A DNA stretch of 63,001 nucleotides from Minisyncoccia bacterium (GTDB lineage: Bacteria; Patescibacteriota; Minisyncoccia; Phycocordibacterales; UBA918). A model generated the notes under the pieces. It saw only the letters and a program-made list of their open reading frames with translations, searched no databases and had not been told where the DNA came from. Shown here one piece after another: positions 29,842 through 33,688 of this stretch (the first letter of the stretch is position 1; each line of letters begins with the position of its first letter). The position numbers and the translations under genes were made by a program. Where the stretch lies: contig JBGSYZ010000012.1 in the NCBI GenBank assembly GCA_041750655.1, positions 1-63,001 of the forward strand. Direction: 5' to 3'.

Positions 29842-29922
29842 CTAATAATATTTCCCAAATATTATTAGCCATCGTCTAACGGCTAGGATTGAAACAATAT
29901 GGGATATTGTTTCAAGGTTCTC
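29842..29922 (+). other. 20-nt copy of the tRNA-Glu 5' end between two perfect 12-bp hairpins
   Basis: 29869-29888 is identical to 29996-30015. Confidence 0.85.
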
Positions 29923-29991
29923 CCCTAAAATTTCAATTTTATGGATGAGAAAATTTACTTAGCTATTTACAAATAAATACAAATATATATT

Positions 29992-30063
29992 GGCCCCATC
30001 GTCTAACGGCTAGGACATATGGTTCTCATCCATAAAATCGGAGTTCGATTCTCCGTGGGGTCA
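29992..30063 (+). tRNA. tRNA-Glu (CTC)
   Basis: Cloverleaf: GGCCCCA/TGGGGTC acceptor stem, TATGG-TTCTCAT-CCATA anticodon arm, CGGAG-TTCGATT-CTCCG T arm; CCA not encoded. Confidence 0.95.
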
Positions 30064-31589
30064 CATTCAGAAACTTGGTCAGAAGTAAGCGCAAAATCTG
30101 GGCGCGCCGAAGGCGCGCTGTATGGCGAGGAAATGAAATCCGTCTTGCGGGCGCGGGCGAATTCGGAGGGCGGGCAAAATGAGATCGAAATAGTTTTGTC
30201 TTTCAGCGCGGGGTTCGTTCCAAAAGAACGAAGAAAATCTCGCATCTCATGGAGATTTTCACTGGTTGCCAGAAACCCCGCGCGTTTTGAATCCAAAATC
30301 CATTTCCGCAGGGGTTCGACCCAATTCTTTCTCTCGGCTCGGGCAGATGAAGATTTTGCTTGAAGCGAGCTTTTTTGACGCATGAGCGCGTCCTTTTTCG
30401 TCAGATATATATCGCGCTCAATGTCGTGGTTTAGGTATAAATCAACAAGTGCGTCGAGCTTCGCTTCAAGCATTTTCAAATCTTCCTTCATCTGCCCGAG
30501 CCGATTTCCCGAAGCGTGGATTTCGTCGTGCTCAAAAACTCCAACTTTTTTGAGCATATAATCTGCCCACGCTTCGGGAAGCGACACTGTTTGAAGCTGT
30601 TCTCTAACTTGGAGAGCGAGCGCATCTTCCATTAAATATCTCTGACCACATTTTCCTTTCTTTTTCGTACAACGATAATAACGATAGCGACCACCCATTT
30701 TTCCAGTACACCACTGCGCGGTTATCATACTTCCACACTCCCCACAACGAAAAAGTCCGGTGAAAGGAAAATTGTGAGATATTTTGCTATGCCTCGGATG
30801 CGCTCGCACGAGAAGTTGTTTCTGCACAGCTTCAAACAGTGTCGGAGAAAGAATTGGCGCAAAGCTTCCGGGAAAATACTCCTCACGATGTTTTGTAAAT
30901 CCCAAGTAGGCACGATTAGTCAGTATTCTTTTCACGGAAGCTTTGCCAAGTGGCGTTCCGGACTTTTGAGCAACACCGTGGTCAGCCAAAAATTGCGACA
31001 GTGAAATGAGGGTATGTGTTCCTTTTACATACTCACCAAACGCGCGGACAATAATTTTAGATTTCACCGGATCAGGTTCGATATTGCGCGTGGTGGGGTT
31101 GTTCACATACCCGAATGGAGCGCGGGTTAGCCATTCTCCTCGTCGCAATTTTTGGCGCATACCTCGCTCCACATTTTGCTTCAAATTGTCAGAATAATAT
31201 TTACTTTGTCCGAACGCCACTTGAAGCATAAAGAGCCCCTGCGGTGTTGGTTCAAACCAAAATGTCGGAAAACGCAAAGAGACGATTTTTGAAGTGTCTA
31301 CGGCGTAAATGATGCGTCCTCCGTCAATACTATTTCTCGCTAGTCGGTCAGGATGCCACGCGAGAATACCAACATTGCCTAACTTTTCAATTTTGAGCAT
31401 CATTTCGCCGAACACTTCTCGTCCCGGACTCTTTGCGCTTTTCGACTCTTGAAATTCCTCAAGAATTTCAAGATTTTCTCTGCTCGCAAATTCACGAAGC
31501 TCCACAAGTTGAGCTGGAATACTCATAACTTGTTTATCATCATCTTCGGTGCTCTTGCGAGCGTAGAGAAAATATTTTGGTTTGTTCAT
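30003..31589 (-). CDS. Large serine recombinase (resolvase, recombinase and zinc-ribbon domains)
   Basis: YARKS catalytic motif, DRLARN, CGECG...YYRC..C, coiled coil; C-terminus reads through the antisense tRNA. Confidence 0.93.
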   Translation of the reverse strand: MNKPKYFLYARKSTEDDDKQVMSIPAQLVELREFASRENLEILEEFQESKSAKSPGREVFGEMMLKIEKLGNVGILAWHPDRLARNSIDGGRIIYAVDTSKIVSLRFPTFWFEPTPQGLFMLQVAFGQSKYYSDNLKQNVERGMRQKLRRGEWLTRAPFGYVNNPTTRNIEPDPVKSKIIVRAFGEYVKGTHTLISLSQFLADHGVAQKSGTPLGKASVKRILTNRAYLGFTKHREEYFPGSFAPILSPTLFEAVQKQLLVRAHPRHSKISHNFPFTGLFRCGECGSMITAQWCTGKMGGRYRYYRCTKKKGKCGQRYLMEDALALQVREQLQTVSLPEAWADYMLKKVGVFEHDEIHASGNRLGQMKEDLKMLEAKLDALVDLYLNHDIERDIYLTKKDALMRQKSSLQAKSSSARAERKNWVEPLRKWILDSKRAGFLATSENLHEMRDFLRSFGTNPALKDKTISISFCPPSEFARARKTDFISSPYSAPSARPDFALTSDQVSECDPTENRTPILWMRTICPSR

Positions 31590-31808
31590 AAATAGATTTT
31601 GGATTCAAAAAAGGAAACTATTAAGATCTCATTTCTTGCTTTCCGCCCGCCCTCCGAATTCGCCCGCGCCCGCAAGACGGATTTCATTTCCTCGCCATAC
31701 AGCGCGCCTTCGGCGCGCCCAGATTTTGCGCTTACTTCTGACCAAGTTTCTGAATGTGATCTAATCATATCCTTTGCGCGAACCTTTTTCCAACAGAACT
31801 CTGACTAA
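30061..31808. mobile_element. tRNA-anchored serine-recombinase element bounded by inverted repeats
   Basis: 30061-30175 is the exact reverse complement of 31645-31759; recombinase gene between them. Confidence 0.7.
31599..31808 (+). pseudogene. Inverted duplicate of the recombinase 3' end carrying an alternative C-terminus
   Basis: Encodes PPSEFARARK...QVSECD identical to the recombinase, then LIISFARTFFQQNSD*. Confidence 0.75.
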
Positions 31809-31835
31809 TGATATACTTACCACTCAAATCAGAAC

Positions 31836-32564
31836 ATGAAACTCATATCCCTAAATATTGAAGGTTTTAAACACCTAGACTTAGTCCAACCATTCCTAAA
31901 GAATGAATTAGCTGACACAATTTGTCTCATGGAAGCTCCTCAGAGTTTCCAAAACTGGTTTGTAGCCGAAGGTTATCAATGCACTTTTGCTCCTATGTGT
32001 TTAAAAATTCATAGCGGAGAACCGTACCCTGAAGGAATTTTAGTAGCTACTAAATTGGCTCATACAGCAGAAGTGATTCCATATTTTAAACCCACTACTG
32101 ATATTGTTACCTACGACCACAAAAGAAGACGAGAAACCCAAAATCATTTCGTATTATATTTTGAAACAGACGGTATCAATATAGCCACCACCCACTTTAC
32201 GTGGAATCCGAAGGGTGAAATCGCTGACGAATATCAGACCTTGGACATGAAAGAAATGTTACAGGCTCTAGAGAAAAAACCGGCCCATGTATTGTGTGGC
32301 GATTTGAACATACCACGAAATATTAATACTCTGTACGATGTGTTAAAAAATAAATACCATGACAACATTCCTTATCAATACTATTCTAGTCTAGATAATG
32401 AATTACACCGAAAAGGTAAAGCGCAAGAATTTAAAAAGTTATTTGATAGTTTTATGGTTGACTATTTGTTTACCCAAGAACCATACGAAACGACAGATAC
32501 TAGACTGGTATTTGGTGTGAGTGACCACGCAGCTATAGTGAGTAATGTTAGTAAAAGAAAATAA
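31836..32564 (+). CDS. Endonuclease/exonuclease/phosphatase family protein
   Basis: SLNIEG, CLME, CGDLN, VDYLF, SDHAAI. Confidence 0.88.
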   Translation: MKLISLNIEGFKHLDLVQPFLKNELADTICLMEAPQSFQNWFVAEGYQCTFAPMCLKIHSGEPYPEGILVATKLAHTAEVIPYFKPTTDIVTYDHKRRRETQNHFVLYFETDGINIATTHFTWNPKGEIADEYQTLDMKEMLQALEKKPAHVLCGDLNIPRNINTLYDVLKNKYHDNIPYQYYSSLDNELHRKGKAQEFKKLFDSFMVDYLFTQEPYETTDTRLVFGVSDHAAIVSNVSKRK

Positions 32565-32581
32565 CCTGATATACTGCTTGC

Positions 32582-33109
32582 GTGCAAACATTAAACGATA
32601 CCACCCCAGAAAAAATATCCCTTCAAAACCAAGCTTTTAGAATTGGTATGTTGTGGCGCATAGCCTACGGTAGTTTTCGTGTACTTGTAGGTTTGATGCT
32701 GGTCCAATTCATTCATCAACCGTTTCCTGATTTTCTGCGCACTATTTTTAGAAATGAATTAATAGAAAACCCCAATGATCTTTTTGCTACTCAGTTGTTG
32801 AATTTTTTTAGTCACCATGATTTTACAATAACTTTTTTCTTTGCTTTTTATATAATTTTTTGGGGTGTGATGGATATTTTTCTATCTATCTGTCTACTTA
32901 AACACCAGCATTGGGCGTTTCCATTCAGTTTGTTTTTGATTGCTTCCTTTATGATATATGAAATCTTGCGTTTTCTTCATACTCATTCGATAACTTTGTT
33001 AATTTTACTCACTATTGATAGTGTGGTTTTTTGGTTAATTTATCGAGAATATAAAAATAGATGGCCAATAATCAAGATGCCTTGGAATAGTAAAAAAGTG
33101 TCTGATTAA
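32582..33109 (+). CDS. Membrane protein, DUF2127-like
   Basis: Four hydrophobic segments, WAFP......F..YEI.R; AT-rich. Confidence 0.7.
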   Translation: MQTLNDTTPEKISLQNQAFRIGMLWRIAYGSFRVLVGLMLVQFIHQPFPDFLRTIFRNELIENPNDLFATQLLNFFSHHDFTITFFFAFYIIFWGVMDIFLSICLLKHQHWAFPFSLFLIASFMIYEILRFLHTHSITLLILLTIDSVVFWLIYREYKNRWPIIKMPWNSKKVSD

Positions 33110-33190
33110 TACCTATTAAATTCTATCCTTGCAGTAGCAATGGATACAAGCTATAAAAGAGTAAGAACAGACCTCTCGAAGGAGGACAAA

Positions 33191-33688
33191 ATGTCGTTAG
33201 GCTCGTTGGAAATTGACGAAACTCATCCTATTGATATAGCTGAAGTTCTGGCGGAGTTCCACAATTGGCAATTTAATAGAGTTGATGATGATCAATTAGC
33301 CATGACTATAGAGGATCAGTGGCAAAAGTACTCAATTACTCTTGCTTGGTGTGGTGGAGATGAAACCCTACGTCTAATTTGCACATTTGAACTGGACCCG
33401 CCTGAAGATAGATTGTCTGCTCTTTACCAAACACTAAACCTTACGAACGATTTGGTTTGGTGTGGATCTTTTAGTTTTTGGAATGACCAAAAACTGATGG
33501 TGTGGCGGTATGGACTGTCACTTGCCGGTGTGCAAGTAGCTAGCCAGGCCCAAATTGACAAAATGATTATCGAAGCGGTGGAAAATTCTGAACGATTTTA
33601 TCCTTCGTTTCAACTCGTTTGTTGGGGAGACAACAGTCCAGCACAGGCCATGGATATTGCTATGACTAAGGCGTATGGCCGAGCGTAG
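33191..33688 (+). CDS. YbjN-domain protein of alphaproteobacterial type
   Basis: HPIDI.E.LA....W.F.R..DDQ.AM....QW..YSITLAW...DETLRLICTFE...AYGRA recalled from Rhodobacterales proteins; GGAGGA SD before ATG 33191. Confidence 0.8.
   Translation: MSLGSLEIDETHPIDIAEVLAEFHNWQFNRVDDDQLAMTIEDQWQKYSITLAWCGGDETLRLICTFELDPPEDRLSALYQTLNLTNDLVWCGSFSFWNDQKLMVWRYGLSLAGVQVASQAQIDKMIIEAVENSERFYPSFQLVCWGDNSPAQAMDIAMTKAYGRA

What the first reader, a model, noticed from the sequence alone, without database searches (positions are those of the whole stretch)
30003..31808. Serine recombinase between 115-bp inverted repeats that could swap its own C-terminus
Seen: 30061-30175 is the exact reverse complement of 31645-31759. 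The left copy lies inside the recombinase 3' end and begins at the last 3 nt of tRNA-Glu. The right copy sits just upstream of the start codon, on the opposite strand. In the present orientation the protein ends ...VSECD-PTENRTPILWMRTICPSR*, read through the antisense tRNA. The right copy continues ...VSECD-LIISFARTFFQQNSD*. Inverting the DNA between the repeats would give a + strand gene with the second tail, no longer antisense to the tRNA. Homology decays in blocks beyond the perfect repeat: 30285-30300 matches 31596-31611, and GATCTCATTT is shared after a deletion of roughly 85 nt. That pattern favours a biological origin over an assembly artefact. Known: large serine recombinases can integrate at tRNA genes, and integration sites within an integrase gene can alter its C-terminus. 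Inferred: left = attL-like junction, right = extra attP-like site in inverted orientation, giving a compact phase-variable switch controlling recombinase C-terminus and antisense tRNA transcription.
Basis: partly seen in the sequence, partly recalled or inferred. Interest (0 to 1): 0.82.

Follow-up and report, generated by a model that had tools for sequence, protein, structure and literature searches.

The report
tRNA-docked serine integrase cassette, mirrored attP
This is a cut-down copy of a widespread, apparently undescribed mobile element of ultra-small (Patescibacteria) bacteria, whose serine integrase carries its attachment site inside its own gene, so that inserting at a tRNA gene swaps the enzyme's tail while a mirror copy of the site upstream keeps the original tail.

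Summary
30061-30175 and 31645-31759 are perfect 115-nt inverted repeats around an intact 528-aa large serine recombinase (LSR). The left arm starts in the last bases of tRNA-Glu(CUC).

It is neither chance nor an assembly artefact. A second, 44%-identical LSR in the same genome has the same layout at tRNA-Gln. So do about 130 of 171 related loci from Patescibacteria genomes and metagenomes.

Comparison shows that the left arm plus tRNA is an attL. The right arm plus the next 50 nt is an intact, inverted copy of the element's attP. The attP core lies 17 codons before the native stop. Integration therefore replaces a conserved C-terminal helix (..LIISFARTFF..) with tRNA-antisense read-through.

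The two arms evolve in concert. The opposite linkage is rare in other assemblies: the tRNA lies on the 5' side in 2 loci, and the gene reads into the native tail in 7.

This copy has no cargo and no attR, so it is a stranded cassette.

An inversion catalysed by the LSR itself is the less likely mechanism.

The parts
29992..30064 (+). tRNA-Glu(CUC). This is a host gene. Its T arm and acceptor 3' end form the B-type half of attL.
   Evidence: ARAGORN and Rfam RF00005 at 58.3 bits. It is the only tRNA-Glu(CTC) in the genome. tRNA sequences differ between hosts that carry near-identical elements.
30061..30175 (.). Left arm ('b') of the perfect 115-nt inverted repeat. It is the element-side half of attL. 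On the - strand it encodes LSR residues about 472-509.
   Evidence: (I1). The outer 17 nt are conserved across the family: tCACAaA..gAaACTTC, coding EVSxC.
30061..30064 (.). Core shared by attL and the internal attP (TCA(C)/(G)TGA), which holds the presumed crossover dinucleotide.
   Evidence: Identity between the two junctions ends here. In elements at other tRNAs the terminal 3-6 nt change with the tRNA 3' end: TGTGA for Glu, TGCGG for Ser, TGTGC for Arg, TGTGG for Ala.
30003..31589 (-). Large serine recombinase gene, 528 aa, intact. Its last 19 codons (30003-30062) are read-through antisense to the tRNA.
   Evidence: Pfam Resolvase 1.5e-19, Recombinase 2.6e-11, Zn_ribbon_recom 4.6e-11. R11, S13, D81, R82, R85 and four Cys are invariant in 96 relatives. 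Foldseek top hits are the SPbeta, LI, Bxb1 and phiC31 integrases. dN/dS of the body is 0.12.
30102..30118 (.). GC hairpin inside the left arm (GCGCGCC-GAA-GGCGCGC). Its mirror copy is at 31702-31718.
   Evidence: Read from the sequence. Family-wide, the longest perfect stem has a median of 7 bp against 4 in shuffles, and stem sequences differ between elements.
31590..31644 (+). Decayed inverted copy of the LSR 3' region (WILDSK...ISF), with a gap of about 85 nt and a 10-nt insert next to the arm. It also serves as the LSR 5' leader.
   Evidence: I3, I6. The alignment of L003, L008, L009 and L010 shows the same layout in relatives.
31645..31759 (.). Right arm ('b'') of the inverted repeat. It forms one half of the internal inverted attP.
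   Evidence: I1.
31760..31809 (+). The 'a' arm. It is the other half of the internal attP and encodes the native LSR tail LIISFARTFFQQNSD*. It is truncated at 31809.
   Evidence: It is in frame with the arm. The consensus is T..TA.CcTTTGCgCGAAC. Homology to L039 ends at 31809 and to L037 at 31790, and there is no second copy in the genome or window.
31764..31793 (-). Promoter-like site TTGGAA-18 nt-TATGAT inside the 'a' arm, pointing through the right arm at the LSR start.
   Evidence: Consensus scan only. Function is inferred.
31599..31808 (+). 69-codon open frame through the right arm and tail. It is not an independent gene.
   Evidence: A start codon upstream of the arm exists in only 42 of 100 relatives, and the open length upstream of the arm varies from 0 to 39 codons.

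Best explanation
The region 30061-31809 is a stripped-down copy of a family of small integrative elements of Patescibacteria. These elements insert at the 3' end of tRNA genes using a large serine recombinase (LSR).

Shown:
- The element's attachment site attP lies inside the LSR gene, 17 codons before the native stop.
- Integration into tRNA-Glu has therefore cut off a conserved C-terminal helix (LIISFARTFF...). The gene now reads into the antisense strand of the tRNA.
- The left arm plus the tRNA is attL.
- Just upstream of the LSR start sits a second, inverted and uncut attP: the right arm plus 50 nt. It still encodes the native tail.
- In complete relatives this internal attP is followed by about 2 kb or more of cargo and then by attR. 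Here the cargo and attR are missing, so the cassette cannot leave by attL x attR.

Inferred:
- The free form is a circle with two inverted attP-bearing repeats, laid out like the yeast 2-micron plasmid.
- The two 115-nt arms are kept identical by homologous recombination or gene conversion.
- An occasional crossover between the arms flips the gene and re-attaches the native tail.
- Tail loss on integration changes the activity or stability of the enzyme and locks the element in place. Flipping would re-arm it.
For: Architecture:
- It recurs. A second LSR in the same genome (44% identical) has a 127-nt perfect repeat at tRNA-Gln, across the C14/C10 contig junction.
- Repeats of 113-140 nt next to a tRNA are seen in relatives.
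- In 132 of 171 loci the LSR 3' arm abuts a tRNA 3' end, covering 12 amino-acid types of tRNA plus one with anticodon tta.

Mobility:
- Copies 94% identical at the nucleotide level share homology only over 29991-31790, and their flanks are unrelated.
- Copies with 89-90% amino-acid identity occur in other families of the order, against 77% in the same genus.

Site assignment:
- In L054, L091, L111 and L112, attL, the internal attP and attR share a 3-6 nt core. The outer repeat is 100% identical in three of the four.
- The core changes with the target tRNA.
- The 'a' arm carries CGAAC at +20 from the core. The tRNA T loop carries CGAAC at +14. This fits the 5-bp register shift of the zinc-ribbon domain between attP and attB half-sites reported for phiC31.

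Native tail:
- It is in frame and open for at least 14 aa in 98 of 106 loci, against 24 and 11 in the other two frames. The motif is EVSxC[DGA]x[IL][ILV][ST]FART[FYH]F.
- The LSR reads directly into this tail in L045, L130, L132 and L177.
- AlphaFold models it as a helix (residues 503-523, pLDDT about 78) after a disordered linker. The window's own protein has pLDDT below 50 from residue 458 to the end.

Concerted evolution of the arms:
- Of 109 elements, 59 have 0 mismatches between their arms and 21 have 1.
- Elements with 85-90% identical LSR bodies have arms that are only 65-83% alike.

Opposite linkage:
- L050 (k127) and L109 (k141) have tRNA, arm, then the LSR 5' end.

Stranded copy:
- The 'a' arm stops at 31809 and has no partner anywhere in the genome.
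Against: - No read-level test was possible in this genome, so both orientations are not shown here.
- The skew of 132 loci against 2-9 argues against free flip-flop.
- L050 and L109 are short contigs that break in the other arm. They could reflect integration through the second attP rather than inversion in place.
- The free circular form with two attP copies was not observed. No relative was found in IMG/VR.
- Assemblers can pop bubbles and so make nearly identical arms look identical, which inflates the count of zero-mismatch elements.
- Ten of 109 elements have 7-21 arm mismatches with an open LSR frame, which is not explained.
- The 'a' arm is under overlapping constraints: DNA site, coding, and possibly a promoter. 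Tail conservation is therefore not pure protein-level evidence. dN/dS for the tail is noisy (0.75 over 44 pairs, including two loci with truncated tails).
- The functional effect of the tail is entirely inferred.
Confidence: 0.7

Rival explanations
1. The LSR itself recombines the two 115-nt repeats (attL x inverted attP) at appreciable frequency. This gives a regulated phase-variable switch that alternates the enzyme's C-terminus and turns antisense transcription of the tRNA on and off.
For: - Both linkages exist in nature.
- The arms are perfect and evolve in concert.
- The two junctions share the core and the whole b half-site.
- No separate directionality factor is evident in the small islands inspected.
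Against: - Serine integrases are known to pair attP only with attB, and attL-bound dimers are auto-inhibited (phiC31 and SPbeta structures, and established knowledge).
- A conservative crossover at a fixed dinucleotide cannot homogenise 115 nt, so gene conversion is needed anyway.
- The orientation skew is 132 against 2-9.
- There is no read evidence in this genome.
Confidence: 0.15
2. Inert relic. The cassette is a dead end left by deletion of the rest of an island. The repeat, the spare tail and the intact ORF persist only because the deletion is recent. Nothing flips and the protein does nothing here.
For: - There is no attR and no cargo. The 'a' arm is truncated at 31809.
- Other genomes show independent truncations of the 'a' arm at 8, 13 or 17 nt: L038, L128 and L009.
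- Some relatives have decayed arms with 7-21 mismatches.
Against: - The ORF is intact, with all catalytic and zinc-binding residues.
- The arms have 0 mismatches and the tail frame is intact.
- Several truncated cassettes also keep perfect arms: L038 and L128.
- The LSR body is under strong purifying selection across integrated copies, with dN/dS 0.12.
Confidence: 0.12
3. IS-like transposon. The 115-nt repeats are terminal inverted repeats of a 1.7-kb element (30061-31759), and the serine recombinase is its transposase.
For: - The unit shared with unrelated genomes is only about 1.8 kb.
- The repeats bracket a single recombinase gene.
Against: - Homology and the conserved coding tail run 30-50 nt beyond the right repeat.
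- Complete islands end at the 'a' arm, not at the repeat.
- The genome holds only the two arms and no further copies.
- One end always lies at a tRNA 3' end with a matching core, as in site-specific integration.
Confidence: 0.02
4. Assembly artefact: a chimeric or fold-back join created the right copy.
For: - This is a metagenome-assembled genome.
- Contigs of this family often break at the repeat, for example at the C14/C10 junction.
Against: - The same layout occurs in well over 100 independent assemblies from different assemblers and sites, including a closed chromosome, CP060229.
- The right copy has its own diverged inner flank and its own conserved tail.
Confidence: 0.01

Closest known systems
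Large serine integrases of phages and integrative elements (phiC31, Bxb1, Listeria A118/LI, SPbeta SprA)
   Same: - Same domain set and fold.
- Conservative integration that gives attL and attR with a short shared core.
- A P-type half-site whose outer motif lies about 5-6 bp further from the core than in the B-type half-site.
   Different: - attP lies inside the integrase ORF, so integration swaps its C-terminal helix.
- A second, inverted attP is kept next to the gene as a perfect long repeat.
- The target is the extreme 3' end of many different tRNAs, with the core co-varying.
- No directionality factor gene is evident.
- The carrier is a 2-8 kb island rather than a phage, and none was found in IMG/VR.
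Integration-dependent immunity of mycobacteriophage BPs and relatives (PMC4557955)
   Same: attP sits in the 3' end of a regulatory gene. The integrated and free forms therefore make proteins with different C-termini, which couples protein behaviour to integration state.
   Different: - There the split gene is the repressor, the integrase is a tyrosine recombinase, and the removed tail is an ssrA-like degradation tag.
- Here the split gene is the serine recombinase itself, and the role of the tail is unknown.
Yeast 2-micron plasmid FLP/FRT flip-flop (and large inverted repeats of plastid genomes)
   Same: - Two long, perfectly identical inverted repeats, each holding a recombination site, separate two unique segments. 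One segment holds the recombinase gene.
- The arms are kept identical by recombination.
   Different: - FLP is a tyrosine recombinase that acts on the two identical sites.
- Here the circle is inferred rather than seen, the enzyme is an LSR that should not pair two attP sites, and the element lives integrated at a tRNA.
Hin/Gin/Cin/Pin DNA invertase switches and intragenic invertons
   Same: A recombinase gene within or beside a segment bounded by inverted repeats. Inversion would exchange a protein's C-terminal coding end.
   Different: - Those use small serine invertases, 26-bp sites and a Fis-bound enhancer, and both orientations are common in populations.
- Here the enzyme is an LSR, the repeats are 115-140 nt, and one orientation dominates.
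Engineered integrase-RDF fusions (PMC5737554)
   Same: A module tethered to the integrase C-terminus through a flexible linker decides which sites are recombined. This family has a disordered linker, encoded by the arm, followed by a conserved terminal helix.
   Different: The fusions are artificial. Nothing yet shows that the natural tail affects directionality.

Membership tests
Large serine recombinase / serine integrase | N-terminal resolvase catalytic domain with the serine nucleophile and the Arg/Asp set | tested here: met
   PF00239 at 1.5e-19. R11, S13, D81, R82 and R85 are invariant in 96 relatives.
Large serine recombinase / serine integrase | Recombinase domain plus a zinc ribbon with four Cys and an embedded coiled coil | tested here: met
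   PF07508 and PF13408. C282, C285, C307 and C314 are invariant. Long helices span 339-422 in both models. Foldseek E-values of 1e-11 to 1e-8 to the SPbeta, LI and Bxb1 integrases.
Large serine recombinase / serine integrase | Conservative attP x attB integration that leaves attL and attR sharing a short central core | tested here: met
   In L054, L091, L111 and L112, attL, the internal attP and attR share 3-6 nt at the boundary. The window has attL and the internal attP sharing TCA. The 2-nt staggered cut itself cannot be tested here.
Large serine recombinase / serine integrase | Excision needs a separate recombination directionality factor | not testable with these tools
   No conserved small cargo gene was seen in the islands inspected. 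Directionality factors have no common fold, so absence cannot be shown.
Hin/Gin-type invertase switch | Small (about 190 aa) serine recombinase with a C-terminal helix-turn-helix | tested here: not met
   The protein has 528 aa with the LSR domain set.
Hin/Gin-type invertase switch | Short (about 26 bp) imperfect inverted crossover sites | tested here: not met
   The arms are 115 nt and perfect, and 113-140 nt in relatives.
Hin/Gin-type invertase switch | Both orientations coexist in a population | tested here: inconclusive
Across other assemblies, 2 loci have the tRNA on the 5' side and 7 read into the native tail, against 132 in the usual orientation.
Integration-dependent switch (BPs type) | attP inside the 3' end of a gene, so that integration changes the product's C-terminus | tested here: met
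   The core lies 17 codons before the native stop. The native tail is in frame in 98 of 106 loci.
Integration-dependent switch (BPs type) | The removed C-terminus is a degradation tag, the split gene is the repressor, and the integrase is a tyrosine recombinase | tested here: not met
   The split gene is the serine recombinase itself. The tail ..FARTFFQQNSD has no ssrA-like ending, and its role is untested.
IS or transposon with terminal inverted repeats (including the serine transposons IS607 and Tn4451/TnpX) | The element ends coincide with the repeats, and there are several copies per genome | tested here: not met
   Homology and the coding tail extend 30-50 nt beyond the right arm. The genome holds only the two arms. 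Islands end at the 'a' arm.
2-micron-like flip-flop replicon | Circular form with two identical inverted repeats that separate two unique segments | not tested
   This is inferred from the integrated layout host|a-cargo-a'|b-LSR-b'|tRNA. No circular contig was recovered, and there was no hit in IMG/VR.

The most novel reading that the evidence does not exclude
The conserved C-terminal helix is a built-in directionality or activity module that stands in for a separate directionality factor.

- The free element makes the full enzyme, which integrates.
- Integration through the attP inside the gene cuts off the helix and locks the island in place.
- A rare flip across the mirrored attP (or re-joining on excision) restores the helix and re-arms the enzyme.

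The element would then control the direction of a serine integrase by rewriting the integrase gene itself.
Probability: 0.2. Interest if true: 0.85.

Novelty: new variant of a known kind. Interest (0 to 1): 0.6.

Why it matters
Serine integrases are major genome-engineering tools. How they choose direction is an active structural question.

A natural family in which integration edits the integrase's own C-terminus, with a spare copy of the site and tail kept in mirror image, would be a new kind of control logic. It can be tested directly with two protein versions and three site pairs.

The family also offers hundreds of related integrases aimed at the 3' ends of at least 12 tRNA types, with a core that co-varies with the target. 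That is useful for understanding and redesigning site choice.

It also describes a main component of the little-known mobilome of Patescibacteria, whose genomes of about 1 Mb were thought to be poor in mobile elements.

The copy in this window is a degraded member, so it illustrates the family rather than being the best specimen.

Tried and rejected
- Empty site in close relatives: the neighbouring Exo_endo_phos gene is at most 49% identical within the genus, so no usable empty tRNA-Glu site was found.
- Distal partner of the 'a' arm (attR) in this genome: none was found by blastn-short against all 17 contigs or by a degenerate pattern in the window, where hits were at chance level. The region before murF shows nothing like it.
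- The 69-codon + frame as a separate small gene: rejected. There is no conserved start and the open length varies.
- Known RNA family in the repeat: only the tRNA passes. The other matches are far below the gathering score.
- Phage origin: no relative in IMG/VR.
- Second contig with the complementary junction in the genome behind L050 or L109: none.
- IS-like reading and artefact reading: rejected (see rival explanations).
- Literature: five full-text searches found no description of this architecture. One search was the search for the known analogue. The library lacks most subscription journals, so this is not proof of absence.
Full report
**1. The observation**

The window holds a perfect 115-nt inverted repeat, 30061-30175 and 31645-31759. 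These are its only two copies in the 906-kb, 17-contig genome.

tRNA-Glu(CUC) lies at 29992-30064 (Rfam 58 bits), so the left arm begins in its last 3-4 nt.

Between the arms the minus strand carries a 528-aa ORF, 30003-31589. It has the three Pfam domains of large serine recombinases (LSRs). It ends ...VSECDPTENRTPILWMRTICPSR*, and the last 19 codons are antisense to the tRNA.

The plus-strand frame through the right arm continues ...VSECDLIISFARTFFQQNSD*.

The weaker block homology inside the arms is also present (I3 and I6).

**2. Not chance and not an artefact**

The same genome holds a second LSR that is 44% identical. It spans the overlap of contigs C14 and C10, lies against tRNA-Gln(CUG) in the same orientation, and is bracketed by its own perfect 127-nt inverted repeat.

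In 60 related genomes the closest homologues show repeats of 113-138 nt next to tRNA-Glu, tRNA-Leu and others.

All named hosts are Patescibacteria.

I classified 171 loci:
- In 132 the LSR 3' arm abuts the 3' end of a tRNA. The tRNAs cover 12 amino-acid types plus one with anticodon tta.
- In 103 of these the other arm is followed by the tail motif.

**3. It is mobile, and its limits**

The nearest relative, L037, is 94% identical at the nucleotide level. It shares homology with the window only over 29991-31790, and its flanks are unrelated.

The tRNAs themselves differ between hosts. The element therefore starts at the tRNA 3' end.

Copies with 89-90% amino-acid identity sit in other families of the order, while a genome of the same genus has a copy that is only 77% identical.

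On the right, homology runs 30-50 nt beyond the repeat. The best case is L039, to 31809.

**4. What the two junctions are**

Four relatives contain whole islands within the fetched flanks. With the LSR on the plus strand their layout is:

host | a -> cargo (about 0.2-2.4 kb) <- a' | b -> LSR -> b' | tRNA

Here b and b' are the repeat seen in the window. The a and a' arms are a second inverted repeat, 158-241 nt long and 100% identical in three of the four.

The three boundaries are b'|tRNA, b|a' and host|a. They share 3-6 nt: TGA, TTGTGC, GCGG and TTGCGG in the four islands.

This is the signature of conservative site-specific integration:
- b'|tRNA is attL.
- host|a is attR.
- b|a' is an uncut copy of the attP junction (b'|a) in inverted orientation.

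The terminal bases of the b arm change with the target tRNA: TGTGA at Glu, TGCGG at Ser, TGTGC at Arg, TGTGG at Ala. The core is therefore matched to the tRNA end, and integration rebuilds the tRNA.

The 'a' arm has a strongly conserved CGAAC at +20 from the boundary. The tRNA T loop supplies CGAAC at +14. A 5-bp outward register shift of the zinc-ribbon domain on attP relative to attB half-sites is reported for phiC31. The observed 6-nt shift fits an 'a' arm that mimics the T loop as a P-type half-site. This last step is an inference.

**5. attP lies inside the integrase gene**

I read each locus in the frame set by its LSR ORF. The sequence beyond the upstream arm stays open for at least 14 codons in 98 of 106 loci, against 24 and 11 in the other two frames.

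It encodes a conserved motif, EVSxC[D/G/A]x[I/L][I/L/V][S/T]FART[F/Y/H]F[E/Q]..stop. Variation falls at synonymous positions (GCG/GCA/GCT, ACC/ACT).

In L045, L130, L132 and L177 the LSR reads directly into this tail.

L130 has an 85-nt deletion that shifts the frame through the arm. It also has a 2-nt shorter spacer that puts ARTYF back in frame. This suggests the arm encodes a tolerant linker and the tail is what is selected.

dN/dS is 0.12 for the LSR body and 0.43 for the arm.

AlphaFold2 was run with 96 family sequences:
- It models the native tail as a helix (residues 503-523, pLDDT about 78) after a disordered stretch.
- The window's own read-through protein has pLDDT below 50 from residue 458 to the end, with no terminal helix.
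- The tail columns of the alignments hold few sequences, so this is supportive only.

The 69-codon plus-strand frame in the window is not a gene of its own. Only 42 of 100 relatives have a start codon upstream of the arm.

**6. The arms evolve in concert**

Of 109 elements with both arms complete, 59 have no mismatch, 21 have one and 9 have two.

Elements whose LSR bodies are 85-90% identical have arms that are only 65-83% alike. For example, the window and L040 differ at 20 of 115 arm positions, yet each has perfect arms.

The arms therefore diverge quickly between elements but stay identical within each one. That requires copying between arms, by gene conversion or recombination.

A fixed-point conservative crossover by the LSR cannot do this. 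Homologous recombination can, and each crossover would flip the gene.

Caveats:
- Bubble-popping by assemblers may erase one or two real differences.
- Ten elements have 7-21 mismatches with an open LSR frame, which I cannot explain.

**7. Does it flip?**

Indirect evidence from other assemblies:
- L050 (MEGAHIT k127) and L109 (k141) have tRNA-Glu, the arm and then the LSR 5' leader and start. Their k-mers are longer than the 115-nt arm in L050.
- Seven loci have the LSR joined to the native tail.
- These contigs are short and break in the other arm, as expected for minority forms. They could equally come from integration through the other attP or from free elements.
- The genome behind L050 has no complementary contig.

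The skew of 132 against 2-9 means the two states are not equivalent. The read-through state is the stable one.

**8. This copy**

The 'a' arm stops at 31809, just after the tail's stop codon. No partner exists in the genome or window.

Other genomes carry independent truncations of the 'a' arm after 8, 13 or 17 nt: L038, L128 and L009.

The window therefore holds a cassette that has lost its cargo and attR. It cannot excise by attL x attR.

Its ORF, catalytic residues, zinc ligands, arms and spare tail are all intact.

The three plus-strand genes to the right (Exo_endo_phos, DUF2127, YbjN) lie between the cassette and the murF/PBP cluster. They could be host genes or residual cargo. I could not decide which.

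**9. Mechanism, with status**

Shown by comparison:
- The identities of attL, the internal attP and attR.
- attP lies inside the ORF.
- The native tail is conserved.
- The arms evolve in concert.
- The element is mobile.
- This copy has lost attR.

Inferred:
- The free form is a circle with two inverted attP-bearing repeats.
- Tail loss on integration alters the enzyme.
- Rare recombination between the arms, probably of the RecA type, restores the tail.
- A promoter-like TTGGAA-18-TATGAT in the 'a' arm drives the LSR.

**10. Comparison with known systems**

The protein is a member of the large serine recombinases.

The system differs from described serine-integrase elements in three ways: attP inside the integrase ORF, a mirrored spare attP kept as a long perfect repeat, and multi-tRNA targeting with a co-varying core.

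It works somewhat like three known systems:
- The integration-dependent immunity of phage BPs (PMC4557955).
- The 2-micron plasmid.
- Engineered integrase-RDF fusions (PMC5737554).

It is not a Hin-type switch and not an IS.

Five literature searches, one of them for the known analogue, found no description of it.

Earlier agents of this scan reached similar readings in other genomes. I re-derived the junction logic and the tail conservation independently here.

**Verdict**

The attL plus spare-attP reading is supported. The phase switch is unproven, and if it exists it is probably driven by homologous recombination and is rare. This is a new variant of a known kind, and this copy is a degraded member.

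Noticed in passing
G000 contigs C14:28764-29045 joined to C10:1-1526 (not in the window): A second cassette of the same design lies across a contig break with a 46-nt overlap. It consists of tRNA-Gln(CUG), a 127-nt perfect inverted repeat, and a 496-aa LSR 44% identical to the window's. Its alternative tail is different (..SILFRRHSQLVLARDA*).
   Followed up: partly
G000 contig C16:23-427: A third, more distant LSR fragment (33% identity over residues 218-346) lies at a contig start.
   Followed up: no
window 29869-29951: A scrambled tRNA-Glu remnant lies just upstream of the intact tRNA. It has a 20-nt exact copy of tRNA positions 5-24 (29869-29888), then a 27-nt hairpin, then GGTTCTC, then an inverted copy of the anticodon arm (29929-29951, matching 30023-30045 at 87%). 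It is probably a decayed duplicate tRNA. No link to the cassette was shown.
   Followed up: partly
window 30102-30118 and 31702-31718; family-wide: A GC-rich hairpin lies in the middle of each arm. It is kept across the family with different stem sequences, for example GCGCGCC/GGCGCGC, GCGTCGC/GCGACGC and GTTGGTGGCTC/GAGCCACCAAC. The median stem is 7 bp against 4 in shuffles. It overlaps the peptide AP(S/Q)AR. Its function is unknown; it could be an RNA stem or a pause or terminator.
   Followed up: partly
L130:186-1667: A variant LSR (95% identical over 438 aa) has an 85-nt deletion that makes it read the arm in another frame. A 2-nt shorter spacer restores the ..QARTYFQNK* tail in frame.
   Followed up: partly
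L101:1832-1905: One family member sits at a tRNA with anticodon tta, which ARAGORN calls 'tRNA-Stop'. This would be a possible UAA-reading tRNA in a Paceibacteria genome.
   Followed up: no
L040, L057, L076, L081, L097, L099, L115 (contig starts): Many contigs begin 48-52 nt outside the upstream arm, at about the end of the tail. This suggests a recurrent assembly-graph branch there, from population heterogeneity or from the start of the longer 'a' repeat.
   Followed up: no
L042, L043, L088, L152 and others: Some elements have 12-21 mismatches between their arms although the LSR frame is open. They may be old stranded copies, or hybrids of two element variants.
   Followed up: no
window 31836-33688: Three plus-strand genes (Exo_endo_phos, DUF2127, YbjN) with low G+C (35% at 32-33 kb) lie between the cassette and the murF/PBP cluster. 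They may be residual cargo or host accessory genes.
   Followed up: partly
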